This document shows positions 11,466 through 39,581 of a DNA stretch of 64,000 nucleotides, piece by piece. The translations under genes and the position numbers were made by a program. Below the pieces are notes generated by a model. That model was given only the letters and a program-made list of their open reading frames with translations, was not told the DNA's origin and searched no databases. Position 1 is the first letter of the stretch, and each line of letters starts with the position of its first letter. Source of the DNA: Pristiophorus japonicus. Taxonomy: Eukaryota. Location of the stretch: the NCBI RefSeq assembly GCF_044704955.1, contig NC_091995.1, forward strand, positions 53,816,001-53,880,000. The letters run 5' to 3'.

Positions 11466-11677
11466 TTATTGTGTTCCGAATACAGATGAGGCTGCACACA
11501 GGGAGCTTAAAGTAACAGTGACCACCGTCTTTATTAAGACACTCCAGAGTGAGGAACAGGCCTTAGGGGCCGGCTTATATACAGTGCTCCCAAGGGATGT
11601 TGGGATCCCTTGGGACTTCAGGGGATGAGCTCTCTGGTGGCGGAACATGGGAATGCATGCTTTGCAGATGCACAACA
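11466..11677 (-). repeat. 5' LTR of the Gypsy element
   Basis: Begins TGTTGTG on the minus strand; contains TATATAAG and AATAAA; followed by the PBS. Confidence 0.9.
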
Positions 11678-14600
11678 CCTGGGGCCCAGACCGGTGGGGA
11701 TTAAAGGAGCAGTGCCCGGGGCCCAGACTGGTGGGGAGTAAAGGAGCAGTGCCCGGGGCCCAGACCAGTGGGGATTAAATGACCAGTGCCCGGGGCACAC
11801 ACCAGTGGGGATTAAATGAGCAGTGCCCGGGGCCCAGACCAGCGAGGATTAAATGAGCAGTGCCCGGGGCCCAGACCGGTGGGGATTAAATGAGCAGTGA
11901 CTGGGGCCCAGACCGGTGGGGATAAAGGAGCAGTGCCTGGGGCCCAGACCGGTGGGGAGTAAAGGAGCAGTGCCCGGGGCCCAGACCAGTGGGGATTAAA
12001 GGAGCAGTGCCCGGGGCCCAGACCAGTGGGGATTAAATGAGCAGTGACTGGGGCCCAGACCGGTGGGGATAAAGGAGCAGTGCCTGGGGCCCAGACCGGT
12101 GGGGAGTAAAGGAGCAGTGCCCGGGGCCCAGACCAGTGGGGATTAAAGGAGCAGTGCCCGGGGCCCAGACCGGTGGGGATTAAAGGAGCAGTGCCCGGGG
12201 CCCAGACTGGTGGAGATTAAAGGAGCAGTGCCCAGGGCCCAGACCGGTGGGGATTAAAGGACCAGTGCCCGGGGCCCAGACCGGTGGGGATTAAAGGAGC
12301 AGTGCCCGGGGCCCAGACCGGTGGGGATTAAAGGAGCAGTGCCCGGGGCCCAGACCGGTGGGGATTAAAGGAGCAGTGCCCGGTGCCCAGGGCCCAGACC
12401 GGTGGGGATTAAATGACCAGTGCTCAGGGCCCAGACCGGTGGAGATTAAAGGACCAGTGCCCGGGGCCCAGACCGGTGGGGATTAAAGGAGCAGTGCCCG
12501 GGGCCCAGACCAGTGGGGATTAAAGGACCAGTGCCCGGGGCCCAGACCAGTGGGGATTAAAGGAGCAGTGCCCGGGGCCCAGACCGGTGGAGATTAAAGG
12601 AGCAGCGCCCGGGGCCCAGACCGGTGGAGATTAAAGGAGCAGTGCCCGGGGCCCAGACCGGTGGAGATTAAAGGAGCAGTGCCCGGGGCCCAGACCGGTG
12701 GGGAGTAAAGGAGCAGCGCCCGGGGCCCAGACCAGTGGGGATTAAAGGAGCAGTGCCCAGGGCCCAGACCGGTGGAGATTAAAGGAGCAGTGCCTGGGGC
12801 CCAGACCAGTGGCGATTAAAGGAGCAGTGCCCGGGGCCCAGACCAGTGGGGATTAAAAGAGCAGTGCCTGGGGCCCAAACCGGTGGGGATTAAAGGACCA
12901 GTGCTCGGGGCCCAGACAGGTGGAGATTAAAGGAGCAATGCCCGGGGCCCAGACCAGTGCGGAGTAAAGGAGCAGTGCCCGGGGCCCAGACCAGTGGGGA
13001 TTAAAAGAGCAGTGCCTGGGGCCCAAACCGGTGGGGATTAAAGGACCAGTGCTCGGGGCCCAGACTGGTGGAGATTAAAGGAGCAGTGCCCGGGGCCCAC
13101 AGCGGAGGGGATTAAAGGAGCAGTGCCCGACGCCCAGACCGGTGGGGATTAAATTACCAGTGCCCGGGGCACAGACCGGTGGGGATTAAAAAAGCAGTGC
13201 CCGGGGCCCAGACCGGCGAGGATTGAATGACCAGTGACTGGGGCCCAGACCTGTGGGGAGTAAAGGAGCAATGCCCGGGGCCCAGACCGGTGGGGAGTAA
13301 ATGACCAGTGCCCGGGGCCCAGACCGGTGGAGATTAAAGGAGCAGTGCCCGGGGCCCAGACCAGTGGGGATTAAAGGACCAGTGCCCAGGGACCAGACCG
13401 GTGGGGATTAAAGGAGCAGCGCCCGGGGACCAGACCAGTAGGGATTAAAGGACCAGTGCCCAGGGACCAGACCGGTGGGGATTAAAGGAGCAATGCCCGG
13501 GGCCCAGACCAGTGGGGATTAAAGGACCAGTGCCCGGGGCCCAGGGCCCAGACCGGTGGGGATTAAATGACCAGTGCCCAGGGCCCAGACCAGTGGAGAT
13601 TAAAGGACCAGTGCCCGGGGCCCAGACCAGTGGGGATTAAAGGACCAGTGCCCGGGGCCCAGACCGGTGGAGATTAAAGGAGCAGCGCCCGGGGCCCAGA
13701 CCAGTGGGGATTAAAGGAGCAGTGCCCGGGGCCCAGACCGGTGGGGATTAAAGGAGCAGTGCCCAGGGCCCAGACCAGTGCGGAGTAAAGGAGCAGTGCC
13801 CGGGGCCCAGACCAGTGGGGATTAAAAGAGCAGTGCCTGGGGCCCAGACTGGTGGGGATTAAAGGACCAGTGCCCGGGGCCCACAGCGGAGGGGATTAAA
13901 GGAGCAGTGCCCGGGGCCCAGACCGGTGGGGATTAAATGACCAGTGCCCGGGGCACAGACCGGTGGGGATTAAATGAGCAATGCCCGGGGCCCAGACCAG
14001 TGGGGATTAAAGGAGCAGTGCCCGGTGCCCAGGGCCCAGACCGGTGGGGATTAAATGACCAGTGCCCAGGGCCCAGACCAGTGGAGATTAAAGGACCAGT
14101 GCCCAGGGCCCAGACCAGTGGAGATTAAAGGACCAGTGCCCGGGGCCCAGACCAGTGGGGATTAAAGGAGCAGTGCCCGGGGCCCAGACCAGTGCGGAGT
14201 AAAGGAGCAGTGCTCGGGGCCCAGACCAGTGGGGATTAAAAGAGCAGTGCCTGGGGCCCAGACTGGTGGAGATTAAAGGAGCAGTGCCCGGGGCCCACAG
14301 CGGAGGGGATTAAAAGAGCAGTGCCCGGGGCCCAGACCGGTGGGGATTAAATGAGCAGTGCCCGGGGCACAGACCGGTGGGGATTAAATGAGCAGTGCCC
14401 GGGGCCCAGACCGGCGAGGATTGAATGACCAGTGACTGGGGCCCAGACCGGTGGGGAGTAAAGGAGCAGTGCCCGGGGCCCAGACCGGTGGGGAGTAAAG
14501 GAGCAGTGCCCGGGGCCCAGACCAGTGGGGATTAAATGACCAGTGCCCGGGGCACACACCAGTGGGGATTAAATGAGCAGTGCCCGGGGCCCAGACCAGC

Positions 14601-17600
14601 GAGGATTAAATGAGCAGTGACTGGGGCCCAGACCGGTGGGGATAAAGGAGCAGTGCCTGGGGCCCAGACCGGTGGGGAGTAAAGGAGCAGTGCCCGGGGC
14701 CCAGACCAGTGGGGATTAAAGGAGCAGTGCCCGGGGCCCAGACCAGTGGGGATTAAATGAGCAGTGACTGGGGCCCAGACCGGTGGGGATAAAGGAGCAG
14801 TGCCTGGGGCCCAGACCGGTGGGGAGTAAAGGAGCAGTGCCCGGGGCCCAGACCGGTGGGGAGTAAAGGAGCAGTGCCCGGGGCCCAGACCAGTGGGGAT
14901 TAAAGGAGCAGTGCCCGGGGCCCAGACCGGTGGGGATTAAAGGAGCAGTGCCCGGGGCCCAGACTGGTGGAGATTAAAGGAGCAGTGCCCAGGGCCCAGA
15001 CCGGTGGGGATTAAAGGACCAGTGCCCGGGGCCCAGACCGGTGGGGATTAAAGGAGCAGTGCCCGGGGCCCAGACCGGTGGGGATTAAAGGAGCAGTGCC
15101 CGGGGCCCAGACCGGTGGGGATTAAAGGAGCAGTGCCCGGTGCCCAGGGCCCAGACCGGTGGGGATTAAATGACCAGTGCTCAGGGCCCAGACCGGTGGA
15201 GATTAAAGGACCAGTGCCCGGGGCCCAGACCGGTGGGGATTAAAGGAGCAGTGCCCGGGGCCCAGACCAGTGGGGATTAAAGGACCAGTGCCCGGGGCCC
15301 AGACCAGTGGGGATTAAAGGAGCAGTGCCCGGGGCCCAGACCGGTGGAGATTAAAGGAGCAGCGCCCGGGGCCCAGACCGGTGGAGATTAAAGGAGCAGT
15401 GCCCGGGGCCCAGACCGGTGGAGATTAAAGGAGCAGTGCCCGGGGCCCAGACCGGTGGGGAGTAAAGGAGCAGCGCCCGGGGCCCAGACCAGTGGGGATT
15501 AAAGGAGCAGTGCCCAGGGCCCAGACCGGTGGAGATTAAAGGAGCAGTGCCTGGGGCCCAGACCAGTGGCGATTAAAGGAGCAGTGCCCGGGGCCCAGAC
15601 CAGTGGGGATTAAAAGAGCAGTGCCTGGGGCCCAAACCGGTGGGGATTAAAGGACCAGTGCTCGGGGCCCAGACAGGTGGAGATTAAAGGAGCAATGCCC
15701 GGGGCCCAGACCAGTGCGGAGTAAAGGAGCAGTGCCCGGGGCCCAGACCAGTGGGGATTAAAAGAGCAGTGCCTGGGGCCCAAACCGGTGGGGATTAAAG
15801 GACCAGTGCTCGGGGCCCAGACTGGTGGAGATTAAAGGAGCAGTGCCCGGGGCCCACAGCGGAGGGGATTAAAGGAGCAGTGCCCGACGCCCAGACCGGT
15901 GGGGATTAAATTACCAGTGCCCGGGGCACAGACCGGTGGGGATTAAAAAAGCAGTGCCCGGGGCCCAGACCGGCGAGGATTGAATGACCAGTGACTGGGG
16001 CCCAGACCTGTGGGGAGTAAAGGAGCAGTGCCCGGGGCCCAGACCGGTGGGGAGTAAATGACCAGTGCCCGGGGCCCAGACCGGTGGAGATTAAAGGAGC
16101 AGTGCCCGGGGCCCAGACCAGTGGGGATTAAAGGACCAGTGCCCAGGGACCAGACCGGTGGGGATTAAAGGAGCAGCGCCCGGGGACCAGACCAGTAGGG
16201 ATTAAAGGACCAGTGCCCAGGGACCAGACCGGTGGGGATTAAAGGAGCAATGCCCGGGGCCCAGACCAGTGGGGATTAAAGGACCAGTGCCCGGGGCCCA
16301 GGGCCCAGACCGGTGGGGATTAAATGACCAGTGCCCAGGGCCCAGACCAGTGGAGATTAAAGGACCAGTGCCCGGGGCCCAGACCAGTGGGGATTAAAGG
16401 ACCAGTGCCCGGGGCCCAGACCGGTGGAGATTAAAGGAGCAGCGCCCGGGGCCCAGACCAGTGGGGATTAAAGGAGCAGTGCCCGGGGCCCAGACCGGTG
16501 GGGATTAAAGGAGCAGTGCCCAGGGCCCAGACCAGTGCGGAGTAAAGGAGCAGTGCCCGGGGCCCAGACCAGTGGGGATTAAAAGAGCAGTGCCTGGGGC
16601 CCAGACTGGTGGGGATTAAAGGACCAGTGCCCGGGGCCCACAGCGGAGGGGATTAAAGGAGCAGTGCCCGGGGCCCAGACCGGTGGGGATTAAATGACCA
16701 GTGCCCGGGGCACAGACCGGTGGGGATTAAATGAGCAATGCCCGGGGCCCAGACCAGTGGGGATTAAAGGAGCAGTGCCCGGTGCCCAGGGCCCAGACCG
16801 GTGGGGATTAAATGACCAGTGCCCAGGGCCCAGACCAGTGGAGATTAAAGGACCAGTGCCCAGGGCCCAGACCAGTGGAGATTAAAGGACCAGTGCCCGG
16901 GGCCCAGACCAGTGGGGATTAAAGGAGCAGTGCCCGGGGCCCAGACCAGTGCGGAGTAAAGGAGCAGTGCTCGGGGCCCAGACCAGTGGGGATTAAAAGA
17001 GCAGTGCCTGGGGCCCAGACTGGTGGAGATTAAAGGAGCAGTGCCCGGGGCCCACAGCGGAGGGGATTAAAAGAGCAGTGCCCGGGGCCCAGACCGGTGG
17101 GGATTAAATGAGCAGTGCCCGGGGCACAGACCGGTGGGGATTAAATGAGCAGTGCCCGGGGCCCAGACCGGCGAGGATTGAATGACCAGTGACTGGGGCC
17201 CAGACCGGTGGGGAGTAAAGGAGCAGTGCCCGGGGCCCAGACCGGTGGGGAGTAAAGGAGCAGTGCCTGGGGCCCAGACCGGTGGGGATTAAAGGAGCAG
17301 TGCCCGGGGCCCAGACCAGTGGGGATTAAAGGAGCAGTGCCCGGGGCCCAGACCGGTGGAGATTCAAGGACCAGTGCCCGAGGCCCAGACCAGTGGGGAT
17401 TAAAGGAGCAGTGCCCGGTGCCCAGGGCCCAGACCGGTGGGGATTAAATGACCAGTGGCCAGGGCCCAGATCGGTGGAGATTAAAGGAGCAGTGCCCGGG
17501 GACCAGACCAGTAGGGATTAAAGGACCAGTGCCCGGGGCCCAGACCGGTGGGGATTAAAGGAGCAGCGCCCGGGGCCCAGACCGGTGGGGATAAAGGAGC

Positions 17601-19345
17601 AGTGCCTGGGGCCTAGACCGGTGGGGATTAAAGGAGCAGTGCCCGGGGCCCAGACTAGTGGAGATTAAAGGACCAGTGCCCGGGGCCCAGACCGGTGGGG
17701 ATTAAAGGAGCAATGCCCGGGGCCCAGACCAGTGGGGATTAAAGGAGCAGTGCCTGGTGCCCAGGGCCCAGACCGGTGGGGATTAAAGGACCAGTGCCCG
17801 GGGCCCAGACCGGTGGAGATTAAAGGAGCAGTGCCCGGGGCTCAGACCAGTGGGGATTAAAGGAGCAGTGCCCGGGGCCCAGACCAGTGGCGATTAAAGG
17901 AGCAGTGCCCGGGGCCCAGACCAGTGCGGAGTAAAGGAGCAGTGCCCGGGGCCCAGACCAGTGGAGATTAAAGGAGCAGTGCCCGGGGCCCAGACCAGTG
18001 GCGATTAAAGGAGCAGTGCCCGGGGCCCAGACCAGTGGGGATTAAAGGAGCAGTGCCCGGGGCCCAGACCAGTGGCGATTAAAGGAGCAGTGCCCAGGGC
18101 CCAGACCAGTGGGGATTAAAAGAGCAGTGCCTGGGGCCCAAACCGGTGGGGATTAAAGGACCAGTGCTCGGGGCCCAGACTGGTGGAGATTAAAGGAGCA
18201 GTGCCCGGGGCCCAGACTGGTGGAGATTAAAGGAGCAGTGCCCGGGGCCCAGACCGGTGGGGATTAAAGGACCAGTGCCCGGGGCCCAGACTGGTGGAGA
18301 TTAAAGGAGCAGTGCCCGGGGCCCACAGCGGAGGGGATTAAAGGAGCAATGCCCGGGGCCCAGACTGGTGGAGATTAAAGGACCAGTGCCCGGGGCCCAG
18401 ACCGGTGGGGATTAAAGGAGCAATGCCCGGGGCCCAGACTGATGGAGATTAAAGGACCAGTGCCCGGGGCCCAGACCGGTGGGGATTAAAGGAGCAGTGC
18501 CCGGGGCCCAGACCAGTGGAGATTAAAGGAGCAGTGCCCAGGGCCCAGACCAGTGGGGATTAAAGGAGCAGTGCCCGGGGCCCAGACCGGTGGGGATTAA
18601 ATGAGCAGTGCCCGGGGCCCAGACCGGTGGGGATTAAAGGAGCAATGCCCGGGGCCCAGACCGGTGGGGATTAAAGGAGCAGTGCCCAGGGCCCAGACCG
18701 GTGGGGATTAAAGGAGCAGTGCCCGGGGCCCAGACCGGTGGGGATTAAAGGAGCAGTGCCCGGGGCCCAGACCGGTGGGGATTAAAGGAGCAGTGCCCGG
18801 GGCCCAGACCGGTGGGGATTAAATGAGCAGTGCCCGGGGCCCAGACTGATGGGGATTAAATGAGCCGTGCCCGGGGCCCAGACCGGTGGGGATTAAATGA
18901 TCAGTGCCCGGGGCCCAGACCGGTGGGGATTAAAGGAGCAGTGCCTGGGGCCCAGACTGATGGGGATTAAAGGAGCAGTGCCCGGGGCCCAGACTGATGG
19001 GGATTAAAGGAGCAGTGCCCGGGGCCCAGACCGGTGGGGATTAAAGGAGCAGTGCCTGGGGCCCGACTGATGGGGATTAAAGGAGCAATGCCCGGGGCCC
19101 AGACCGGTGGGGATTAAAGGAGCAGTGCCTGGGGCCCAGACTGATGGGGATTAAAGGAGCAGTGCCCGGGGCCCAGACTGATGGGGATTAAAGGAGCAGT
19201 GCCCGGGGCCCAGACCGGTGGGGATTAAAGGAGCAGTGCCTTGGGCCCAGACTGATGGGGATTAAAGGAGCAGTGCCCGGGGCCCAGACTGATGGGGATT
19301 AAAGGACCAGTGCCCATAGCCCAGACCGGTGGGGATTAAATGAGC
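11678..19345. repeat. 37-bp GC-rich satellite (GGGGCCCAGACCGGTGGGGATTAAAGGAGCAGTGCCC)n with a 2757-bp higher-order duplication
   Basis: About 7.7 kb of tandem units; rare variants recur at +2757 (11796/14553, 13128/15885, identical ORFs at 13937/16694). Confidence 0.97.
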
Positions 19346-22300
19346 TAGCTGAGAGCAGTGCGAACCGACCTGAGAGTGGGGGTGGGGAGGGGGGTGCGGA
19401 ATCAAAGTGTGACATCACAGGAAAGCAGGGAAGTGATTGGTTGGTGAGTATTTCTCTCTTTTCTCTTTTTTTTCTAAACTTGAGCATTGGTTTAAATTAA
19501 GAGTCGGGATTAAAAACTAAACATAGATAATTGATATTTCCAAACTGGAAAACTGAAGTAAGTAAATAAAACACATTAGAGGTGGCAGGGCAGGCGATGT
19601 GTTGCTGCTGCAGCATGTGGACACCAGTGGGACCCACATCTGCAGTAAGTGTTGGAAGCTCGAGGAACTTCAGCTCGACGTTGATGAGCTGGAGTCCGAC
19701 CTTCAGACACTGCCATACATCAGGGAGGGGGAGAGTTACCTGGATTCAAGTTTGGTCCCTGGTCAGGGACAGGAGGGTGTGTCTACGAGTGAGGAAGGTA
19801 TGGGGACCCAGGATGCAATGATGGAGGAGCCTCGGCCCTTGTTCTTGTCCAACAGGTTCGAGGCTCTTACTCCCTGTGTGGACGAGGGTAGTGACTGCAG
19901 GGAGGATGAGCAAACTGACCACAGCACCGTGGTACAGGGGGCCATTCAAGTGGGGAGTAAAAAGAAATGTTGTAGTGGTAAGGGACAGTATCATTAGGGG
20001 GATAGATAATGTTCTCTGCAGCCGAGAGCCTGTGTCCCGAAGGCTGTGTTGCCTACCCAGTGCCAGGGTTAAGGACATCTCCTCTGGACTGCAGAGGAAC
20101 TTGGAGTGGGAGGGGGAAGATCCAGTTGTCATGACCCACGTAGGTGCCAGCAACATAGATAGCACAAACAAAGAGGTTCTGCTGAGGGAGTATGAGCAGC
20201 TAGGGGCCAAATTAAAAGGCAGAACCACAAAGTTAATAATCTCTGGATTACTACCTGGGCCACGAGCAAGTTTGCATCAGGTAAATAGGATCAGAGAGTT
20301 AAACACGTGGCTCAAAGACTGGTGTGGGAGAAATGGGTTTCAATTCATGGGGCACTGGCACCAGTACTGGGGTAAGAAGGAGCTGTTCTGTTGGGGTGGA
20401 CTTTACTTGAACCAGACAGGGACCAGTGACCTGGTGAATTGAATAATTAGGGCTGTAGGGTAGGACTTTAAACGAAATAGTGGGGGGAGGGATCAGGAGA
20501 GCGGAAATTTAAAAAGTCAAAAAGAAAGGAGATGGCAATAGAATAGGGTAGCGATAGGGGTGATATCCAGAGTGTGACAGGAAGGGACAGTGCATATAAA
20601 CATAACGGTGTATCAGAAAGTGGGGTCAAAGTAGGGAGAATGATAAAAAGACAAAATTGAAAGCTCTTTATCTGAATGCACGCAGATTCGTAACAAGATA
20701 GATGAGTTGACGGCACAAATATAAACAAATGGGTGTGATCTGATAGCCATTACAGAGACATGGTTGCTAGATGACCAAGACTGGGAACTCAATATTCAGC
20801 GGTATTTGACATTTCGGAAGGACAGACAGAAAAGAAAAGGAGTTGGGATAGCTCTGTTAATAAAAGGTGAGATCAGTGTGTGGGTGAGAAATGATATTGG
20901 CTCAGAAGATCAAGATGTAGAATCAGTTTGGGTGGAGATAAGAAATAATAAGGGAAAGAAGTCACTGATGGGAGTAGTTTACAGGCCCCCTAACAGCAGC
21001 TACACAGTCGGACAGAATATAAATCAAGAAATAATGGAGGCTTATAAGAAAGGTATGGCAATAATCATGGGTGGTTTTAATCTTCATATTGGTTGGACAA
21101 ATCAAATGGGCAAAGGTAGCCTTGAGGAAGAGTTCATAGAGTGTACTTGGGATGGTTTATTAGAACAATATGTTGTAGAACCCATCAGGGAGCAGACTAT
21201 TTTAGATCTGGTAATGTGTAATGAGATTGGATTAATCAATGATCTCATAGTAAAAGATCCTCTTGGGAAGAGTGATCATAGCATGGTACATAAGAACATA
21301 AGAAATAGGAGCAGGAGTAGGCCATTTGGCCCCTCAAGCCTGCTCCGCCATTCAATAATATCATGGCTGATCTGATCCTGGCCTCAACTCCACTTCCCTG
21401 CCCGCTCCCCATAACTCTTGACTCCCTTATCATTCAAAAATCTGTCAATCTCCACCTTAAATATATTCAAAGTCCCAGCCTCCACAGCTCTCGGGTAGAG
21501 AATTCCACAGATTCATGACCCTCTGAGAGAAGAAATTCTTCTTCATTTATGTTTTAAATGGGTGACCCCTTATTCTGAAATGATGCCCCTTAGTTCTAGA
21601 TTCCCCAATATGGGGAAACAGCCTCTCTGCATCTACCCTGTCAAGCCCCCTCAGAATCTTATACGTTTCAATAAGATCACTTTTCATTCTTCTAAACTCC
21701 AAGGGGTATAGGCCCAACCTGCTCAACCTTTCTTCATGTGACAACCCCTTCATCTCAGGAATCAACCTCGTGAACCTTCTCTGAACTGCCTCCAATGCAA
21801 GTATATCCTTCCTTAAATAAGGAGACCAAAACTGTACGCAGTACTCCAGGTGTGGTCTTACCAACACCCTGTACAGTTGGAGCAGGACATCCCTACTTTT
21901 ATACTCCATCGCCCTTGCAATAAAGACTAACAGTCCATTTGCCTTCCTGATTACTTGCTGTACCTGCATGCTAACTTTTTGCATTTATGAATAAGAGCCC
22001 CAGATGCCTCTGTACTACAGCATTTTATAATCTCTCCCCACTTAAATAATAATTTGCTTTTTTATTTTTCCTACAAAAGTGAATAACCTCACATTTTCCC
22101 ACATTATAATCCATCTGCCAAATTTTTACCCACTCTCTTAGCCTATCTATATCCCTTTGCAGATTCTTTGCATCCTCCTCACAACTTGTTTTCCCACCTA
22201 TCTTCGTATCATCAGCAAATTTGGCTATATTACACTCAGTCCCTTCATCCAAGTCATTAATATAAATTGTAAATAGTTGAGGAGCCAGCACTGATCCCTG

Positions 22301-23005: not shown

Positions 23006-23568
23006 GAATGGCATAGAATGACCAGTGTGGGACGTAGAAGATCTGATATGGAGGATAAGATAGCATCATACATTTTTACAAAGATTAATGTGTCCCAGCA
23101 ATGGGTACTGGACATGATTCATTCTGACAACCCTCAGGATAGAGCTGCAGAGTGGACAGGGAGTGTAAAGCACAAGAAGTCAAAGGAAAAGGCAGTCTGG
23201 CTCTTGTGCCTACAAAGCCAAGTCCGACTGCTCTGGCATCAGGTTGAGTGCCTCAAAGTGGGGCTGAGAGAGTCACAAGAGCAGTCTGTACCAGCGAAAG
23301 CTGAAGGGACATAAAGCCAGTTAAAGGACATTAAGGCCACATACAGGGTAGCTCGGAGTAGGAGCTACGAGGATTGTGACCATGGTCCTGATGAGGAAAG
23401 AATTAAGAACTTGACCCAAGCTTTGTCAGGACCCCGAGGCATGGTCTGACTTATGGTGCCGGGCAAACCGCGGGTTGAATGAGAAGGGCAGGAACCTCCA
23501 CCGGTACAAGAGACAGAAGCTCAGGTTAGGGTAGTCCCAACAGCACCAGAGGTGCAACTGAGACCGAT

Positions 23569-23933
23569 GACTGGACAGGTTAGATGCGGGAAGAATGTTC
23601 CCGATGTTGGGGAAGTCCAGAACCAGGGGACACAGTCTAAGGATAAGGGGTAGGCCATTTAGGATTGAGATGAGGAGAAACTTCTTCACTCAGAGAGTTG
23701 TTAATCTGTGGAATTCACTGCCGCAGAGAGTTGTTGATGCCAGTTTATTGGATATATTCAAGAGGGAGTTAGATATGGCCCTTACGGTTAGGGGGGATCA
23801 AGGGGTATGGAGAGAAAGCAGGAAAGGGGTACTGAAAGAATGATCAGCCATGATCTTATTGAATGGCGGTGCAGGCTCGAAGGGCCGAATGGCCTACTCC
23901 TGCACCTATTTTTCTATGTTTCTATGTTTCTAT
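23569..23933 (+). mobile_element. CR1 3' fragment inserted in ERV gag
   Basis: MFPMLGKSRTRGHSLR..; (TTTCTATG)n tail. Confidence 0.9.
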
Positions 23934-24221
23934 GTGTCCTCTGTGGCAGCAGAGATACGGCCCATCCACACCAAACCGCGACCAGGGACCGTGACAGAAT
24001 GATTACGTGGTCCCATTCACCACCCCTCAGTTACAGGCCATGGTTGCTGGTCTACCAAAGTTAAAACAGGATGGGGATCCCTCGGTTCACTTCATGGAAG
24101 TTGAGCAAGTAGTGGGGATTAATGGGTGTAATGATGACCAGACCCACAGGCTGATACTGTGTTCCCTGGATACAAAACTGTATCAGAACTTGTCCGCAGA
24201 CATGAAAGCGGGGTGAGGCAC

Positions 24222-25139
24222 CATCATCATAGGCAGTCCCTCGGAATCGAGGCAGACTTGCTTCCACTCCCAAAGTGAGTTAATTGATTGCTGAACAGTC
24301 CGATACGAGAGCCACAGACCCTGTTACAGGTGGGACAGACATTCATCGAGGGAAGGGGTCGGTGGGGCTGGTTAGCTGCGCGCTCCTTCCACTGCCTGCG
24401 CCTGGCCTCTTCACGCTCTTTGCGTTGAGACTCTAAGAGCTCAACGCCTTCCCGGATGCACTTTCTCCACCTCGGGCGGTCTGCGGCCAGGGTCTCCCAG
24501 GTGTCAGTGGTGATGTCGCACTTTACCAGGGAGGCTTTGAGGGTGTCCTTATAACGTTTCCGCTGTCCCCCTTTGGCTCGTTTACCACGAAGGAGCTCCG
24601 CATAAAGCATTTGCTTAGGGAGTCTCGTATCTGGCATGCGAACTATGTGAAGCTGATCGAGTGTGGTCAGTGCTTCAATACTGGGGATGTTAGCCTGGTC
24701 GAGGACACTAATGTTGGTGTGCCTGTCCTCCCAGGGGATTTGCAGGATCTTGTGGTGACATCGTTGGTGATATGTCTCCAGTGACTTGAGGTGCCTTCTA
24801 TACATCGTCCATGCCTCAGATTCATACAGGAGGGCGGGTATTACTACAGCCCTGTCGACCATGAGCTTGGTGGTAGATTTGAGGGCCTGGTCTTCAAACA
24901 CTCTTTTCCTCAGATGGCCGAAGGCTGCACTAGCACACTGGAGGCGATGTTGAATCTCCGCATCAATGTCGACCTTTGTTGATCAGAGGCTCCCGAGATA
25001 TAGGAAATGGTCCGCGTTGTCGAGGGCCGCGTCAAGGATCTTGATGATTGGAGGGCAGTACTGTGTGGTGGTGACAGGCTGGTGGAGCACCTTTGTCTTA
25101 CGGATGTTAAGCATAAGTCCCATGCTTTCATCTGCCTCA
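24222..25139 (-). mobile_element. RTE LINE 3' fragment inserted in ERV gag
   Basis: RTE C-terminal ORF 24227-24901 with CPTC finger, (ATG)n tail; 9-bp TSD GTGAGGCAC at 24213-24221 and 25140-25148. Confidence 0.92.
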
Positions 25140-25811
25140 GTGAGGCACAATAGAGGGGTTAAAGGAGGAAATCCTGAGAGTGATGGGGCAATACCCAGGG
25201 TAGTCTGTTCTCACAGGTAGAGCAGACCCTACAGTTGTCCGGCGAGGCGCCAGTTGCCTTTGCGGACAGGCTATGGCCAGTGTACGCGAGGGCAACTGGA
25301 GGGGTGTCAAACCATGCACAACTGATCGGGGCCCCCAGAAATCACTGGCTCAGGACCCTAATCGCGAACAGCTTGCCACGTGTTAAAGCCAAGGCTGAAG
25401 CATGGTTCGATGCCGACGACCCCACCAACACGGAGGCAGGCGTGCTCCGTAAGTTAGGACTGGCCTTTAAGACCAGCTGTGGGGAAGAGACCAAAAGTAA
25501 GAGTAGGATCTGCGCGATCAAGGTCAGTAAAGGGGATAGGAGGGAATGGTGTCAGGAGGGGCCCCACACTGATGTGTCTAAGACTTATTTTAGATGTGGA
25601 GAAACGGGGCACTGGAGACGGGACGGCCCGCTCCAGAAAACGGGACCCGGGAGGAAACCCCAGCCAACCGAGGCGAAAAGGGCGACCGAGGAAACCTTCG
25701 AGGTCCTGGTGGCAGCCCTCCGTACATGTGCTGGGGAAGGACAGAGGGAGGCTAGATGCTGTCGTGAGTAGCGTTGTGCCGACTGAGCCCGTATGCCCTC
25801 CTTCATCCTGA

Positions 25812-28800
25812 CTAGAATGTGCCCAGCCTCAGTACCTGTGTCCACTCCTCTATGATGAGTGGGGCAGGCCCTGTGTGAAGGTGGGGGTCGAGACGGTTCA
25901 GGGGAAGTATTTGGTGGACACCGGAGCTTCAAGCACGGTGGTCCACTCAAAGCACCCAACCAACTAGCCCCGGTCTAACAAGGTCCCATTGAGTTTAATG
26001 GGATTCACAGGGAGTGAGCAGGCAGGAGCGATGTCTAAACCCCTGAAAATACAGTCAGGGTCTCTCACCACCACGTAGGAGTGTGTGTTAATGAAATGGG
26101 AACAACCCGGGTGGGGAGTCTTCGGGTACGATTTTATGTTAGCACACAGGATCATTGTAGACATGAGGAATCACTGCCTATGGGGGGGCAGTCGGATCAG
26201 ACAAGGTGGAAGAGGTGGTAGTTATTCCCAGGGACAAGGGGGACAGGGATAGTGTCTGCACCATGAAACCCAAGGGGAGTTACAACCTGGAACAGTTGGT
26301 CAGTAACACCCCAGCCCAGTACCAGGTGGATGTGAGGAATAACCTCGCTGCATTCACCACCCACAAACAGATTGTGGACGGGTGACTGAAGTAGAGGTTT
26401 GGGTGGACGGGGGCCCTGTGTCACGGCCTCAGAAACAGTACAGTTTTCCCCGGGAAGCAGAGGCAGACCTGGAAACAGCGCTGGGATCCCTAGTACAACA
26501 GGGAGTGTTGAGAACGATTGCCACGCATGTGAACTCCCCACTCTGGCCGGTCAATAAACACGAACAGTTGTGGAGGGCCACTGTGGGCTATCGGGTCCTC
26601 AACAGCAACATCCCAGCTTGTGCGCCCAGAGTCGCGGCTGTCGCTGACCTGATCGGAAATATCCCAGCGACCGCGATATTTCCAACGGTTTCTGGTCCAT
26701 CCCACTCTGCTGGGAAGACCAGTATAAGTTTGCATTTACATTTAAAAACAACAGTATACTTGGATGTGTCTTCCCCAGGGTTTTCACAACAGCCCCTCCA
26801 TTTTCCACCAGAACATGGCCAATGCTCTGAAACAATTTAGCCAGCCCCAGCAGCTCATTCAGTATGTGGAAGACATTCTCCTTTTCTCTTCGGATAGAGA
26901 GGAGCACGGGCCACTGCTGGATGAGCTGCTCAAACTATTAAGGGAGGCGGGTTTTAAAGTTAACCCGAAGAAAGCACAGGTTGATCAGAAGGAGGTGAAA
27001 TTCCTCGGGCTGACTGTCAGAGCGGGTGAGAGGGCCATTGATGAAGCCAGGCGTAAGGCAATACAAGAGCTCCCAAAAACATATCGGGGGTCAGGTCTTT
27101 CCTGGGACTCACTGGTTGCTGCAGAGACTTCATTGAAGGGTATACAGCCACGGCAGCCCCTCTACTTCGGCTCCTCCGCAAGGGAGTCGAATGGGAGTGG
27201 GACCTCAATTGCCAAGAGGCATTCACTCGCCTAAAAAGGGATTTGCAGACAGCACCTGCGTTGGGTGTGATTAATCAAGGGGAAGAGTTCTCCCTGGAGG
27301 TAGTGGCCAGCGGGGATAGTTTGAGCATGGTGTTGCTCCAGGAGTGACAAGGCAGACTGAGACCCGTGGTCTACTCCTCCAGGGTTCTCATGGATGTCGA
27401 ACGGGGATATTCCAACTGCGAGAGGCATTTGCTAGCCACGCATTGGGCCTTAAAGCGCTCCCAGCTCTTTACAGGTTCATCCACTCTTACACTCCTCACC
27501 CGTCACACGCCCACGCAGATGCTGCTGGACGGCAGGATTAAGGATGGACAGTGAGCAGTTCTTGCATTGCTCACTGGTCCCTGCTGCTCTCACAGACAAA
27601 TCTGAGAATGCAGGGGTTGACCGAACCCAAGTTAGCAGCTAATATGATCTCCCCAGGGACAGCCCACACATGCACGGTGGAAGGGGTATGGGATGTGGAG
27701 GAGCGACTCAGGGCTGGGATACACCCGATGGGCCGGGACATCTATGTGGATGGGTCCAGCACCGCATCTGATGGGGAGCGTCCCACCGAGTGTGGGATCT
27801 ATGACCCAACAGCTAAAGTTGAGAAGGCCATAAAGCTCCCCAACACCATGAGCGCTCAGCACACCGAACTGGAAGCAGTGGCCTATGTGGTGACCCATCC
27901 CATCGGGTTCCCTACTCCATACATCATTTGCTCAGATTCAATGTTCACATGCAACTCCTGCACAGAATATTTGGCAATCTGGGCAAGGCGAGGTTTTAAG
28001 TCCACCGATGCACAAGGTTTTAGAGGCCACTGGCACTCGAGGGGATTACTAGATCCACAAGGTGAAACCTTACTCCAAAACGGAGCCGAGAGGGGAAAGG
28101 AACCAAAAGGCCGACGAGCTAGCCAAAAGGGGAGCTAGGGAGGGCATTTTATGGGATCCAGGTGGAGCAGGTCCAATAGCAGCGATCCGGGACAGGGGAG
28201 GCATGCAGGGGATAGCTCTGGCCCCAGATCTCAAACAGACACAGGCCCAGGACCCTGTTCTTAAAGCTGTCCTACTAGACAGAGAGAAAGGGGAAAATGT
28301 AGAGGGTGCTGCAGACATTTGCGTCCGGGACGGAATGCTTCAAGGGGGACCGGTGGGTGGTCCCAGCACAGCACCGAGAGGAATTCCTCCAGCTGGCCCA
28401 CAGGGGCCCAGGGGCGGGACACCTGGGGCCAGAAACGACTTGGCAGAGAGTAGAGGAGGCAGGGTGGCGGCCACAGCTGAGGGAGGATGTCCGGGACTTC
28501 TGTGCACATTTTCTGGTGTGCGCAGCAAACAATCCCGACCCCCAGCGCAGGAAGGCTCCCCTGGGACACACCAGGAGGATGGAGGGGCTGTGGTGATCAT
28601 TGCAGATCGATTTCATCGGGCCCCTACCCACCACTAAATCAGGTAATAAATACTGTTTATTTGGTGGACGTTTTTTTAAAGTGGGTTGAAGCCTTCCCTT
28701 GCCGAGCGGCCACAGCCCTGGCCACTGCTCGGATCCTGGTAAAGGAGGCATTCTCCAGGTGGGGGCTGTCCCAGGTCATGGAGTCCAACCAGGGAAGCCA

Positions 28801-29609
28801 CTTTACGGGTCAAGTGATGCAACCATCCTGAAACTCCTGGGGATAGAGGGGAAATGGCATGTGGCTCACAACCCTCAGTCATCAGGGATAGTGGAGCGCA
28901 TGAACCGGACCCTGAAGGAACAGTTGAGGAAGGAGGTGGGCCAGTTCCCAAAAACCCGGACGAGGTTTTGCCTCTGATTCTCATGGGGGTCCGACCCAGC
29001 CCCTCCAGGAGCACAGAGTACTCCCCTGATGAGCTGATGACCGGGAGGACCATGCGCACTCCAACCCATGTGTTGGTGCCGGTCCTCACCGAGACACAGC
29101 TCCGGGAGGTAGACCGGGATAAGTTTGTACAGCAGCTGTACAGTACTTTAAAACAAGTCCACATCCAGGCAGCCAACAGCCTGGGGAGGCAGCACCAACA
29201 CAATCGGCTGTTGCTAGAGTCTCAGTACACACATGAATGGGAGGTGGGGGACCAGGTAATGGTCTGTAATTATACCCGAGTGGGGGTGTTTGAGCCACTG
29301 TACATGGGGCCGTACATCATCGTTGACAAGGCGAGCCCCATGGTCTACGCAGTGAAGCTCCCCATATGCACGAAATGGTTCCACATCAACCAGTGCAAGC
29401 TGGTCAAGCCCGATGATGGAAGGACCAGGGCTAAAAGGCACCAGGGCACCACCATGAGCCTGGTGGAGGTGGGTCTCCCTCCCCTGATATGGGACAACGA
29501 TGACCCGGTAAAAGGGGCGGTAAGGAGGAGCAGTCTGATCCCACGGCCGAGGGTGCCGTGGTCACCTCCCTACTCGCCCACCACGAGCCGCAAGAGGCCC
29601 CGAGTGTAG
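25812..29609 (+). pseudogene. pol: ERV pol: protease, RT, tether (degenerate RNase H), RNase H, integrase with GPY/F
   Basis: LVDTGAS (DTG 25917-25925); NSPLWPVNK, LPQGFHNSPSIF, QYVED (26863-26874); RPVVYSSR..YSNCERHLLA; IYVDGS..SAQHTEL..SDS..NQKADELAK; [37 protein letters not shown]. Confidence 0.92.
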
Positions 29610-30676
29610 AGTCATGGGGCTCTCGAGCCCTGCGACTACCGGACCCACAGTCTATATAGTTTGTTTTACATTTTGTTTCGTTGTCAGTCTGTGTGTGTCC
29701 TGCTGCTTGTGTATAACCTGATGGAACTGTGGAGGAGAAAACTCTCTCACAGAACGGATTTTTGCTTGTGTTTTATGTTATAGGAAAGTAAGGAAGTCCA
29801 AGAACACCAAGGGAATGCCAGGAACGTTCGTTGTGGTCCTGTTCCTGAACTGGTTTGGGATCGGCAGCTTGGAGAGGGGAGACACTGAGGAGTCCGTCCT
29901 GTACGGCTGCACTGGGGGGAAAGGACCCAGCATGGTACGGGGGGGTAGGACTGGGGACACCGACGGTGTGGCAGCCTACTTCCATGAGGGAAGCTGGTCG
30001 GGGTGGCTGGGATCCAATTCCTCGCGGTATTCCAGCAGCAAGGCTTTCACGTATGGCGAAGCTTCCATCCCGTGCCCCGGGCTACAAGTCACGGCCACAC
30101 GGGTTAGGGTGACCGAGGGGAGGCGCGTATACTTGCAGTGTGAGGGACACATACCCCTGGGACGGTGGTGGTGGCTCAGGAAATTGAGCCAAGATAAAGG
30201 CAATCGATCCGTGGACTGGGAACAGCTGGGGAACGATGTGTACCGTCAGATTATGGGGACGAAGGGGAGCGTTGAAGTGTACTGGCACAAATGGTGGAAA
30301 GAAGAGGTCGGAATTTACGTGTGTATGTGGGGGTCTGAATGGGTCTGCCCTGTCGGTCGCGTTTTCACCACGGTGACAAGACTCCAGGACCGAGATCGGT
30401 TGGGGACGGAGTATGAACTCCTGTGTGATCCCAGACTCTCCAGATACCGTAAATTCCATGGAGTTGCTAGCACGCGAGGTAGAGCCCCTTCCCACAACCC
30501 ACCAGTACAGGACAGAGGTTAAATGCCCCACCACCACCCCGAAGCCAAGGAATGGGTTGGTGCTAGGCCCGACCGGCAAGATACTTTACCATGATGTGCA
30601 CTACTCGGTCACCTCGGTTATCTTAACCTGACCCAGGTTCACTGCCACGGTGGTGTCCTGCATAGACCGAAAGGCT

Positions 30677-31213
30677 TAGAAACATAGAAACATAGAAAAT
30701 AGGAGCAGTAGTAGGTCATTCGGCCCTTCGAGTCTGCACCGCCATTCAATATGATCATGGCTGATCCTCTCTCAACACCATATTCCCGCTTTTTCCCCAT
30801 ACCCCTTGATATCTTTTGTTTCTAGAAATCTATCTATCTCCCTCTTAAATATATTCAGTGACTTAGCCTCCACAGCCTTGTGTGGTAGAGAATTCCACAG
30901 GTTCATCACCCTCTGAGTGAAAACATTTCTCCTCATTTTGGTCCTAAATTTCTGAGATTGCGACCCCTTGTTCTAGACATCCCAGCCAGGGGAAACATCC
31001 TCCCCGCATCCAGTCTATCCAACCCAGTCATAATTTTATACGTTTCAATGAGATCCCCTCTCATTCTTCTAAACTCTAGTGAATACAGGCCTAGTCGACC
31101 CAATCTCTCCTCATACGACAGTCCTGCCATCCCAGGAATCAGTCTGGTGAACCTTTGCTGCACTCTCTCTATGGCAAGTATATCCTTTCTTAGGTAAGGA
31201 GAGCAAAACTGCA
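30677..31213 (-). mobile_element. CR1 3' fragment inserted in ERV env
   Basis: (TAGAAACA)n tail; ORF 30933-31214 matches the CR1 RT C-terminus; removing it rejoins ..TER-LYEALLKEMF. Confidence 0.9.
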
Positions 31214-32046
31214 CTACGAGGCTCTGCTTAAAGAAATGTTTAGGAAGTTCTATGAGTTAAGTTACGGTGGCGTGGATCAGAACAGTGTGTATGATCTGAC
31301 CTCAGGTCAGTGCGGGCGGTTGGGAAAGGTACAAACAGGGGCTGTTTAACGACGCAGCCACAGCATTTAGCACTGGCATGTCCATTGTTTACAGTATGGG
31401 CGATGCTCAGTTGCAAATGCAGGTAAATACCTTGAGGGATCGGTTGCACAAGATACTGCGAGAAGGTAACGTGATAGAGGGGTCAGAGTTACGGAAGGAT
31501 CAGGCTATGACCATCCATTTGAAGGAGATCATAGCCGAGCTGGAGGCACACGCTCAAACGATTAACAGTTGGATCCGAGAAGATCGGAATGCCTCAGCTC
31601 AGGTGGCAAGCTGTGTGTTGTACGGTGCTTGGCTGCTGAATGAAGGATGCAGTAATTGGGAGGACCTTCAACAAGGTCGCATTCCTTCATGGATCAGCAA
31701 CTGACACCTCACCGCGCTCAGCCCGTACAAAGGTTCCATGAGCCCTGTGCCAACTCCGACTCGCCTCAGAGGCTTACCCAGTCCCGGTAGATTGTGTCCG
31801 GTCCAACGCTACGGTAATGGGGGTTGTACTTCGGATGCCGGTGATGAGCGGGTCACCACGATTGGCACTGGTATACCGAGTACAGAACATCGGCGTTCTG
31901 AGGGACATCATGGGGTGCCACCGTTTGTTGTAAAGTGGGGATCCACCATGCCCGGCACTGACCTTACTGGGTGCCAGAGCAGGGGAGCACACGTGGTACT
32001 ATGTCCTCAGCATTTGTATTCTTTTGATCAACCGATGTGTGGGTTT

Positions 32047-32419
32047 GTGTGTGTGTGTGTAGAGACGTGATCGGGGCCCAGGGGAGGCGTGAGGTCGGGG
32101 CCAGGCCCAGGGGCAGCACGGGCCAGCCCACACTGCGATATGTGTGCACAGAGGTCCGTGCAGCAGAGCAGGTCTCCAGTCATCTTGGTTAACTCTTGCC
32201 ACTGGACCAAGACCTAGCTCTGTCAAGCCCATGTGGTGGCTGGTGTGCAACAGCCACCACACGTTACAAAAATCCACGCACAGGCATCTTCCACCCCTCA
32301 GGATGTAGTTCGTGACCTGGAATATTAGGTCCTGCATTGAAACACCTGTGAACTCATCCTTTTTTGGCGTGGAAGCAAGTCATCCTTGCTTCGAGGGACC
32401 GCCTATGAAGATGATGATG
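32047..32419 (+). mobile_element. Short non-autonomous RTE-tailed element (SINE-like) inserted in env
   Basis: 3' end GGAAGCAAGTCATCCTTGCTTCGAGGGACCGCCTATG..(ATG)n is shared with the local RTEs; 10-bp TSD GTGTGGGTTT at 32037-32046 and 32420-32429. Confidence 0.85.
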
Positions 32420-33371
32420 GTGTGGGTTTACATCAGAGGGTGCGGAGCCCATTAATTGCACCATGGAGGTGATGGCCCAGAGCCACGTTCCACCCCAGGT
32501 AGCTTACACAGGCGGAGGGACATACTGTATCACGACCAGCGTGACTCAGTACCGAGTGTGTAACCACACTTGGTGTCCAGTTACAGATCAGATCTTCTGT
32601 TTCAAACCCTACACCGAGGTCCAGATAGCCCAAGAACGTATTATCCCCATCGCGGAACCCGGTACTGATCACATCACGGTAAACGACACCATCCGCGATT
32701 TGTAGCGGTATGTAACTCAGTTTGGTAACGAGTTTCCACCTCTGCCCGAACACCTCACAAAACTACTCAAAGAGGTTGAACTATCCCAAAAACACTTTTA
32801 CATCCTGGTACAGCAGAACCGGGAAAGGGAAAGGAGATAAAACTGCTTGTATCTCCACCATGGTGGGACATTGGCGTTGACATCGAGGTCCCTCCATGGA
32901 TTTGGGTCATTTCTCATGTGTTGGTGTTAGCTCAATGTGTGATAACCGTGTACCTGATTCATTTATGCTGCAGAAAGCGTGGAAAGGTACTCAGAAATCA
33001 GCAGTTAGCGTTGATCGACAACCAGCCCGGAATTTGAAACGTCTCTTGCCTGTTCCCGCGGGATGTGTGTAAATACCTATATATTTCGTCTGGAGAATGT
33101 ATTTATGTATTTTCTGTCACTGTTTGTAAGGGCACTCAAACCCTGGCTGCTGACAGTTGATTAAAGTTTTGGCCATGGCGGTGAGTTGCCTGGTTTTAAA
33201 GGAACGTTGGTAATACCCTTTGTAAAGTGTGTTATAAACGTTATATGCTGTAACCGCAGAGGGGGACCCATGGGGAATAGGTAACTTCGGTTTGGGAGGG
33301 CTATCACGAGGCATTCTCCTCGGAAGGATGATATTTTCCCCGTGGAGGACAGTGTTAATATCAAAGGGGAG

Positions 33372-34195
33372 TCGACAAAGTCAACTCTGGACTGTTGTGT
33401 TTATATCCCTGTTGGCTGTACACCCTGAAAAGGACTTTTGAAATACTGTGACACAAGATGGCTGGTCTGGATTAGGAAGAAACCTGTTGCTGGGAGAAAC
33501 ATGTGGGGTGGGTCTCTCCCACAGAAACTGGTGAGAGAAGCTAGGTCTGTTCAAATGTTAATTTGAACACTGGCCTGGCAGCAGCCAATGGGTACTCTTA
33601 GGGAGGGCAAGGGACTCTTGTGTGTGGAACCAGGTTGTCTCGGGAAGATAGCAAGGAGCTAGGACAAGACCAACACCTGCATTATCTCCACAATGGTCCA
33701 GCAATCAGGACTGATGGGTCATTTAAAACCCACTCGGGAAGCCTTCGGACATCGATCGGCTGGCTTTGTTCTGACCCCACCACATCTCAGATAGCGCGGA
33801 ATAAGACCTGAAGGAGCCAGAGAGGTTCCCCGGAGGGAACAGAACCAGCCAAACCCAGCCAGAATTGTGGATTACAGGAGTATAACTGTTGAGCGTTTTG
33901 GAAGCTCTCTCTTCGTTCTATCGCATCCTACATGAAGGCACGTTTGTCCACCTCTCGAGGATAAGGACCGAGAGCCAAGCCTCTGCAACCCGACAGACTT
34001 CAACTTTAACCTGGATCTCGCATACTTCAGCCAAGCACGAGGCCATGGAGTCGAACCACTGAGGAAGGACCAGCGAGCAAGGAAGAGTGGATTGGGTGAG
34101 TACTCAATAGTTGCACGCTCAGCAACCGATCCACGAAAGTGCATGATGGGGTGTCAGTGTGCCCTAACCAAACCAGAGGGGTGTTTAGAGTTAAC
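33372..34195 (+). repeat. Putative 3' LTR of the ERV
   Basis: Follows the purine tract AAAGGGGAG (33363-33371); non-coding; ends ..TTAACA. There is no partner LTR in the window to confirm it. Confidence 0.4.
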
Positions 34196-37680: not shown

Positions 37681-39581
37681 ACCCCACTCATGGCAAAGAA
37701 CGGAGAAACACTCATCAAGGACAACGAGGCTGTCAAGGCCTGCTGGAATGAGCACTTTGAAGATCCCCTTAATCGAGACTCTGCCTTTGACTCGAGTGTT
37801 CTCAACTCCATCCTGCAGCATGCAACCTGCCACCACCTCAGTGAGACCCCAACATTGCACGAGGTAGGCAAAGCCATAAAACAGCTCAAGAATAACAAGG
37901 CTACGGTGTGGATGGAATTCCTGCTGAGGCGCTAAAATATGGTGGAGAGATGCAGTTGGCATGGATACATGACCTTATCTCTCTCATTTGGAGGGAGGAG
38001 AACATGTAGGGTGATCTCAGAGATGCAGTGATCGTGTCCATTTTTAAAAAGAGAAACAAGTCTGACTGCAGCAACTGCAAGAGAATCTCCCTGCTATCAA
38101 CCACTGGGAAGGTTGTCTCTAGAGTCCTCCTCAACCGTCTTCTTCCTGTGGCCGAGGAGCTCCTCCCGGAGTCGGTGCGGATTTCATCCCCTATGGGGAA
38201 CAACGGACATGATCTTTGCAGCACGACAACTGCAGGAAAAATGCAGGGAGCAGCGCTAGCCCTTATACATGGCCTTTTTTGATCTTACAAAGGCCTTTGA
38301 CACTGTCGACCGTGAGGGTCTATGGAGCTTCCTCCTCTGTTTTGGGTGCCCCCAAAAGTTTGTCAATATCCTTCATCTGCTCCACGATGACATGCAGGCC
38401 GTGATCCTTACCAGCGGATCCATTACAGGCCCATTCCACATCCGAACCGGGTTCAAACAAGGCTGCGTCATCGCTCCAACCCTTTTCTCAATCTTCCTCG
38501 CTGCCATGCTCCACCTCACTGTCAACAAGCTCCCCGCTGGAGTGGAACTAAACTGCAGAACCAGTGGGAAGTTGTTTAACCTGTGCTGTCTCCAGACGAG
38601 GTCCAAGACCACACAAACCTCTGTGGTTGAACTGCAGTACGCGGACGACGCCTGCATCTGTGCACATTCTGAGGCTGAACTCCAGGATATAGTCGATGTA
38701 TTCACCGAGGCATATGAAAGCATGGGCCTTGTGCTTAACATCCATAAGACAAAGGTCCTCCACCAGCCTGTCCTCGCCGCACAGCCCACCAGTCATCAAG
38801 ATCCACAGCGCGGCCCTGGAGCCTCCTGTCAAGAAAGGCAGACGTTGATGCGGAGATTTAACATCGCCTCCAGTGCAGCCTTCGGCCGCCTGAGGAAAAG
38901 AGTGTTCGAAGACCAGTCCCTCAAACCTACCACCAAGCTCATGGTCTATAGGGCTGTAGTAATACCCGCCCTCCTTTATGGATTAAAGGCATGGACGATG
39001 TATAGAAGGCACCTCAAGTCGCTGGAGATATATCACCAACGATGTCTCCGCAAGATCCTGCAAATCTTCTGGGAGGGCAGGTGCACCAATATCAGTGTCC
39101 TCGCCCAGGCTAACATCCCCATCATTGAAGCACTGACCACACTCGATCAGCTTCACTGAGCAGTCCGCATGCCAGACACGAGACTCCCTAAGCAACTGCT
39201 CTATGCGGAGTGCCTTCATGGCAAAACAGCCAAAGGTGGCCAGCAGAAACATTACAAGGACACCCTCAAAGCCTCCCTGATAAAGTGTGACATCACCACT
39301 GATGCCTGGGAGACTCTGGCCAAAGACCCTCCTAAGTGGAGGAAGTGCATCCAGGAGGGCGTTGAGCTTTTTGAATCTCAATGCTGTGAGCGTGAAGAGA
39401 TCAGGCGCAGGCAGTGGAAGGAGCATGTGGTAAATCAGTCCCACTCCCCCCTTCCCCCGACGAATATCTGTCCCACCTGTGACGGGGTCTGTGGCTCTCG
39501 TGTTGGACTGTTCAGCAACCAAAGAACTCACTTTAGGAGTGGAAGCAAGTCTTCCTTGATTCCGAGGGTCTGCCTATGATG
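37681..39581 (+). mobile_element. 5'-truncated RTE LINE, degenerate
   Basis: FFDLTKAFDTV, KQGCVIAPTLF, LQYADD, C-terminal CPTC; tail GCCTATGATG. Confidence 0.92.

What the first reader, a model, noticed from the sequence alone, without database searches (positions are those of the whole stretch)
25809..25925. Gag stop in the canonical UGA-CUAG readthrough context, in frame with protease
Seen: TGA (25809-25811) is followed by CTA G, and the same frame continues without a stop through LECAQPQYLCPLLYDEWGRP..YLVDTGAS. Established: UGA-CUA(G) is the leaky-stop motif of alphaviruses and several vertebrate readthrough genes, whereas gamma/epsilonretroviruses read through UAG. Inference: Gag-Pol was made by UGA readthrough. 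Caveat: one indel near 25725 must be repaired to link this frame to the upstream Gag.
Basis: partly seen in the sequence, partly recalled or inferred. Interest (0 to 1): 0.7.

Follow-up and report, generated by a model that had tools for sequence, protein, structure and literature searches.

The report
Leaky UGA stop in shark retrovirus
A decayed endogenous retrovirus, probably from a shark, separates its coat gene from its enzyme gene with a UGA stop followed by CUAG, the leaky-stop signal known from alphaviruses; other copies and related fish elements keep the same kind of stop there, so it probably made its enzymes by reading through it.

Summary
Observation confirmed: TGA-CTAG at 25809-15 lies in the protease frame, 36 codons before the catalytic Asp. 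It belongs to a decayed snakehead-retrovirus-like (class III) ERV. Alone, this copy proves little: it has nine other stops in pol-aligned stretches and a broken Gag frame. Other sequences carry the case. Contigs of other copies differ from this one at its other stops and at the Gag break, but no difference at 25809-15 is among the 40 best-supported of 351. A sister subfamily has in-frame TGA-CGT there. The elephant-shark relative CmiERV ends Gag at TGA-CAT in frame with protease. Six of seven published lokiretrovirus consensuses with a separate gag end in TGA-CTA, which that paper's text does not mention. Readthrough is therefore likely (0.8) but inferred, not measured; no stimulatory structure beats shuffles. 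What I did not find in print is the type II UGA-CUA context in retroviruses, and its recurrence in two deep lineages. New variant of a known kind.

The parts
23048..23568 (+). Probable gag 5' part (weak; no family hit)
   Evidence: Position between CR1-like DNA and the capsid-like piece; translation, 0 Pfam hits; inference
23569..23935 (.). Repeat insertion in gag (CR1-like LINE 3' end; label recalled)
   Evidence: Matches other places of the window at 69-93%
23938..24219 (+). Probable capsid piece of gag (weak)
   Evidence: no Pfam hit; inference from position
24219..25145 (-). LINE insertion in gag (RTE-like; label recalled)
   Evidence: 83% match to 38702-39581; minus-strand ORF 24227-24982
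25184..25771 (+). Gag C-terminal ORF with decayed zinc knuckle (about 25586-25627)
   Evidence: Pfam zf-CCHC E=0.0055, under cut-off; frame differs from protease
25721..25733 (+). Frame break of this copy's gag
   Evidence: Most depth of other copies differs in length here (table 4)
25809..25811 (+). TGA: inferred gag stop, in frame with protease
   Evidence: not among majority differences; same place in sister subfamily and CmiERV
25812..25815 (+). CTAG: type II readthrough context
   Evidence: Sequence; definition in PMC13517186
25830..25873 (+). Predicted hairpin about 20 nt after the stop; not better than shuffles
   Evidence: z from +0.54 to -1.4 over 50-100 nt; -0.96 over 152 nt
25812..26200 (+). 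Protease, with two premature stops (25965, 26076)
   Evidence: 56% identity over 97 aa to intact relative P0048
26343..27075 (+). Reverse transcriptase (frameshifted)
   Evidence: RVT_1 E=1e-21; tblastn
27057..28110 (+). Tether (RT_RNaseH_2) and RNase H
   Evidence: Pfam E=5e-8 and 3e-9
28300..29410 (+). Integrase (H2C2, core, C-terminal SH3-like)
29815..33037 (+). Env-like gene in pieces: signal-like start, weak Ig domain, LINE insertion 30677-31214, heptad region, transmembrane-like end
   Evidence: Ig_3 E=0.04; otherwise no library hit; by-eye likeness to lokiretrovirus Env

Best explanation
The TGA at 25809 is the genuine gag stop of an SnRV-like (class III, clade Huo) endogenous retrovirus family. 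Gag and pro-pol lay in one frame. Most ribosomes stopped at UGA and released Gag; a few percent, helped by the CUAG context that weakens termination, put in an amino acid from a near-cognate tRNA and went on to make Gag-Pro-Pol, which sets the Gag:Pol ratio. Shown: sequence, frame, element class, recurrence of a UGA-C at this junction. Inferred: readthrough itself, its rate, and reliance on context rather than on a downstream structure. This copy is dead.
For: Frame and position match the retroviral readthrough layout, stop between knuckle and DTG motif (PMC13517186 sec. 4.1). Other copies: majority differences are listed inside this copy's stops at 25769, 25965 and 26076 and at the Gag break (about 84 of 98 depth in X1, 91 of 104 in X3, 4.2 of 4.2 in X5; my pairing of rows), none at 25809-15. 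A CpG site at 25818 that decayed in this copy keeps its C in 254 of 288 depth, so a CGA origin would have shown. Sister subfamily: in-frame TGA-CGT (loose ends, 7 contigs in X1, 1 in X6). CmiERV scaffold 2: knuckle frame ends at TGA-CAT in frame with protease (read by eye). 11 of 11 clade relatives that include the protease motif start inside the protease, none fused to Gag. UGACUAG supports at least about 1.3% readthrough without a required structure. No -1 slippery heptamer at 25501-25950.
Against: No translation evidence of any kind. One search shows 40 of 351 difference rows, X1 and X3 are one sample and may be the window's own source, and contig depth is not copy number. One loose-end group (X5, 3 contigs, agreement 0.56) shows no clear TGA at this place. 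CUAG itself is not kept in the sister subfamily or CmiERV (only UGA-C). No structure beats shuffles next to the stop. The protein searches had length limits that could miss Gag-Pol fusions, and the Gag search found nothing. SnRV itself uses UAG.
Confidence: 0.8

Rival explanations
1. The TGA is decay: a sense codon mutated in this copy, or in a defective master copy that was then amplified; the live virus had one open gag-pol frame.
For: The copy has 9 other stops in pol-aligned stretches and several frameshifts. Ten of 24 lokiretrovirus consensuses are annotated as fused gag-pol; the two I read have a sense codon before CTA.
Against: Not a majority difference in other copies while this copy's other stops are. 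A second subfamily and a chimaera ERV have TGA-C at the same junction. Only 9 of 4497 stop triplets carry this context.
Confidence: 0.08
2. The UGA is the real gag stop but is tight; Pol came from a separate spliced mRNA or its own start, as in foamy viruses.
For: Class III relatives include foamy viruses, which use a separate pol start. A tight stop would also explain Pol ORFs without Gag.
Against: Pol is in the gag frame, there is no ATG in that frame between the stop and the catalytic motif, and the context is a known leaky one. SnRV, Ovex1 and XtERV-S are described as same-frame suppression elements.
Confidence: 0.08
3. Gag and pol are joined by a programmed frameshift, and the frame change near 25725 is the real junction.
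For: In this copy the knuckle and protease frames differ.
Against: Most depth of other copies does not share the break; no slippery heptamer; a ribosome shifted there would still meet the TGA; CmiERV has no frame change.
Confidence: 0.04

Closest known systems
CmiERV lineage I (elephant shark, SnRV-like; PMC4422223)
   Same: RT motifs LDISNGFWS and LPQGFHNSP; one zinc knuckle; Gag ends ...CP.* at an in-frame TGA-C shortly before the protease motif (by eye)
   Different: TGA-CAT, not TGA-CTAG; its Env carries a gamma-type LQNRMALD motif, this element's does not
Snakehead retrovirus (SnRV)
   Same: Closest named RT by motif; same-frame gag-pol with a stop; no pseudoknot found after its stop
   Different: UAG-GGC junction
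SSSV, ZFERV, RMEV, XtERV-S
   Same: UGA between gag and pro, readthrough presumed
   Different: Contexts UGAAGA, UGACGA, UGAAGU (XtERV-S context not seen); none listed as UGACUA
Lokiretroviruses (PMC7947760)
   Same: Dual RNase H; gag ends in TGA-CTA(G/A) in 6 of 7 consensuses with a separate gag, plus Loki-Cne; Env looks alike by eye
   Different: RT motif CPFGY(S/A)NSP, not LPQGFHNSP; no knuckle in the Gag ends I saw; no chondrichthyan host in the paper's text
Alphavirus and cellular type II readthrough (UGA-CUA/CGG; UGACUAG in human genes)
   Same: Identical stop context; sense-codon variants occur in both
   Different: Unrelated viruses; some need an extended stem-loop, none found here

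Membership tests
Type II readthrough signal (Beier-Grimm) | UGA followed by CUA or CGG | tested here: met
Type II readthrough signal (Beier-Grimm) | Stop separates two in-frame coding regions | tested here: met
   Downstream frame shown; upstream frame broken in this copy but not in most depth of other copies
Type II readthrough signal (Beier-Grimm) | Stop kept across relatives | tested here: met
   UGA-C kept in other copies, a sister subfamily and CmiERV; CUAG only in this subfamily
Type II readthrough signal (Beier-Grimm) | Downstream stem-loop (conditional for UGACUA) | tested here: inconclusive
   z not below -1.4 next to the stop, on one decayed copy; no covariation test
Type II readthrough signal (Beier-Grimm) | Measured readthrough | not testable with these tools
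   Needs a reporter or ribosome profiling
SnRV-like / clade Huo retroviruses | RT groups with SnRV and CmiERV-I | tested here: inconclusive
   Motifs match by eye. The tree puts the RT piece with Heptranchias, near frog and coelacanth relatives, apart from gypsy and p30-Gag elements, but held no SnRV or loki sequence
SnRV-like / clade Huo retroviruses | Order PR-RT-tether-RNase H-IN-env; zinc knuckle | tested here: met
SnRV-like / clade Huo retroviruses | LTR pair and tRNA primer site | tested here: inconclusive
   No second copy of the 3' region in the window; CmiERV's primer site not found; the 5' end is overlaid by LINE DNA
Lokiretrovirus | RT in the loki clade | tested here: not met
   QGFHNSP has 0 hits in the loki supplement, GYSNSP 39; motif comparison, not a tree
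Lokiretrovirus | Env like Mononegavirales F | tested here: inconclusive
   By-eye likeness only; no Pfam, PDB or Atlas support
Gammaretroviral type III readthrough | UAG-G plus pseudoknot | tested here: not met
   Stop is UGA; pseudoknots not searched

The most novel reading that the evidence does not exclude
Context-driven UGA-C(UA) readthrough is the ancestral way of making Gag-Pol in the common ancestor of retroviruses and lokiretroviruses. It survives in lokiretroviruses, SnRV-like and epsilon-like ERVs of sharks, bony fish and frogs; the UAG-pseudoknot, frameshift and spliced-pol strategies of familiar retroviruses would be derived. This family may also pair an SnRV-like Pol with a loki-type F-like Env.
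Probability: 0.2. Interest if true: 0.8.

Novelty: new variant of a known kind. Interest (0 to 1): 0.52.

Why it matters
Readthrough in retroviruses has been measured only for gammaretroviral UAG plus pseudoknot; the 2026 review calls the signals of aquatic retroviruses unclear and lists none with UGACUA. This family, and the TGA-CTA ends in published lokiretrovirus sequences, point to the alphavirus-type signal in two deep retroviral lineages. That gives short, harmless cassettes for a reporter test and a character to map on the retroviral tree when asking which Gag-Pol strategy came first. It also means annotators should not treat this stop as decay.

Tried and rejected
No whole genome held. 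Locus searches with intact relatives found nothing: metagenome contigs, viral contigs. Gag homologue search: none of 1268 candidates (long proteins only, weak evidence). No RNA holder listed. First idea, a shark lokiretrovirus: dropped on RT motifs. Stimulator: not significant next to the stop; a 60-nt window at 25900 folds well (z=-3.99, second of 65 windows) but starts about 90 nt away. 13 of the 17 TGACTAG hits in the loki supplement are not at a gag end; four guessed search strings missed; Aro, Lch and Ape consensuses begin after the junction. Odin supplements gave 0 hits; the passages shown were protein alignments and a table. Env searches blank. No tRNA genes. Earlier findings: nothing by sequence or place.

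Full report
Observation. TGA stands at 25809-25811, followed by CTAG, and the frame stays open to the protease motif, whose Asp codon is at 25917, 36 codons later. The Gag ORF with the decayed zinc knuckle (25184-25771) is in another frame and ends at TAG 25769. The heptamer is not enriched in the window (9 seen, 7.8 expected), but it follows only 9 of 4497 stop triplets outside the satellite, and 1 of 174 on the + strand of 25150-30600.

The element. From about 23050 to 33040 on the + strand lie gag (split by two repeat insertions), protease, RT, tether, RNase H, integrase and an env-like gene in pieces. No LTR pair or primer site was found. The closest named proteins come from a shark (Heptranchias, 71% over part of RT), coelacanth, frogs and turtles, so the host is probably a cartilaginous fish (inference). 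RT motifs match snakehead retrovirus and the elephant-shark CmiERV lineage I, and not lokiretroviruses (by eye). The copy is dead: tblastn with an intact relative shows several frameshifts and 9 further stops, none followed by CTAG.

Other copies. One copy so decayed cannot prove a functional stop, so I laid 4 of the 7 listed runs (contigs; X1 and X3 one sample, X5 and X6 another study) on 25150-26350. Most laid contigs were under 95% alike, so they are mostly other copies. Of 351 difference rows the 40 best supported were shown. They include sites inside this copy's stops at 25769, 25965 and 26076, and the flanking sites 25802 and 25818, but none at 25809-15. At 25818, a CpG decayed in this copy, 254 of 288 depth in X1 keeps the C, so a CGA origin of the TGA should have been listed. 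Length differences at 25721-25733 make up about 84 of 98 depth in X1, 91 of 104 in X3 and 4.2 of 4.2 in X5 (my pairing of table rows); in those copies the knuckle frame runs on to the TGA. Loose ends show a sister subfamily with TGA-CGT in the protease frame (7 contigs in X1, agreement 0.67; 1 contig in X6). Against: a loose-end group in X5 (3 contigs, agreement 0.56) shows no clear TGA; minority variants at the stop cannot be counted; depth is not copy number; X1/X3 may be the window's own source.

Relatives. In the published CmiERV scaffold 2 the knuckle frame runs to TGA-CAT, in frame with the protease motif (PMC4422223 supplement part 1 of 3, read by eye); an epsilon-like CmiERV has in-frame TGA-CTC. 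All 11 clade proteins that include the protease motif (P0002, P0009, P0010, P0012-14, P0031-33, P0048, P0050) begin within about 25 residues before it and none carries Gag; search length limits could hide fusions, and this does not say which codon lies upstream. In the lokiretrovirus supplement (PMC7947760; file cut when stored, line breaks can hide hits) 24 elements have a pol entry, 7 have a separate gag and 10 are annotated as fused. Six of the 7 end in TGA-CTA: G follows in Ofa, Pyo and Sau, A in Bsp, Dcl and Lro; Tfu was not read at DNA level. Cne, with no gag entry, also has TGA-CTA-G. The stop is in frame with pol in Ofa, Pyo, Sau, Cne, Dcl and Lro; in Bsp the published sequence shifts frame further on. 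Of the 10 fused ones I read 2 (probably Str and Pfl); both have a sense codon before CTA, as some alphaviruses do. The paper's main text has no hit for readthrough, frameshift or stop codon.

Mechanism. Same-frame gag and pro split by a stop between knuckle and DTG motif is the readthrough layout (PMC13517186 section 4.1). UGACUA defines type II readthrough, UGACUAG supports at least about 1.3%, and a downstream structure is only conditionally needed. A hairpin is predicted about 20 nt after the stop but does not beat shuffles (z -0.96 over 152 nt; +0.54 to -1.4 over 50-100 nt). No -1 slippery heptamer lies at 25501-25950. Most likely a near-cognate tRNA decoded the UGA a few percent of the time (Trp, Arg or Cys; recalled), giving Gag-Pro-Pol: 0.8. 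Rivals: decay 0.08, tight stop with separate pol mRNA 0.08, frameshift 0.04. Nothing here measures translation.

What is known. UGA at gag-pro is reported for SSSV, ZFERV and RMEV (UGAAGA, UGACGA, UGAAGU) and XtERV-S; SnRV and Ovex1 use UAG. So UGA readthrough by a fish retrovirus is not new. I found no paper noting UGA-CUA in a retrovirus or lokiretrovirus in nine library searches or in the review, which does not mention lokiretroviruses; the library lacks most subscription papers and Repbase. What I saw: PMC7947760 text parts 1-2 of 4, term search and supplement passages; PMC13517186 abstract, outline, section 4.1 part 1, tables and passages; PMC4422223 text part 1 of 2 and supplement; passages only of PMC8278194, PMC4977317, PMC12440569, PMC9040795 (plus supplement passages), PMC5512871, PMC8922424, PMC2717909, PMC3835772 and bioRxiv 10.1101/2023.10.26.564294 (its supplements not seen).

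Verdict. A real, conserved feature and a likely readthrough signal; a new variant of a known kind. Its interest lies less in this copy than in the recurrence of UGA-C(UA) in SnRV-like, epsilon-like and loki lineages, which could be ancestry or convergence on the leakiest eukaryotic stop context. A copy-resolved count from an assembly is still missing.

Noticed in passing
window 29815-33037: The env-like gene has a weak Ig domain and, by eye, stretches like lokiretrovirus F-type Env (GRIP motif, Cys pattern), although Pol is SnRV-like and CmiERV-I has a gamma-type Env: a possible env swap. No library support.
   Followed up: partly
PMC7947760 supplement: Lokiretrovirus gag genes end in TGA-CTA(G/A) in 6 of 7 separate-gag consensuses plus Cne; not mentioned in the paper's text.
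   Followed up: partly
window 25900-25959: Strong predicted hairpin over the protease active-site codons (z=-3.99); another at 26320 (z=-4.43).
   Followed up: no
window 29755-29785: Pyrimidine-rich tract ending in AG just before the env-like start: candidate splice acceptor.
   Followed up: no
window 33100-34190: Non-repeated stretch after env, candidate 3' LTR; no second copy in the window.
   Followed up: partly
window 7520-9950, minus strand: A second, more distant LTR-element pol remnant (about 27% to P0002).
   Followed up: no
window about 11550-19500: Satellite of about 205 copies of a 37-nt unit.
   Followed up: no
window 43635-43729: Three TGACTAG at 44-nt spacing, likely a tandem repeat.
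   Followed up: no
P0048: An uninterrupted 1392-aa Pol of a close relative on an 8.5-kb contig suggests recently active members of the family; its DNA could not be fetched.
   Followed up: partly
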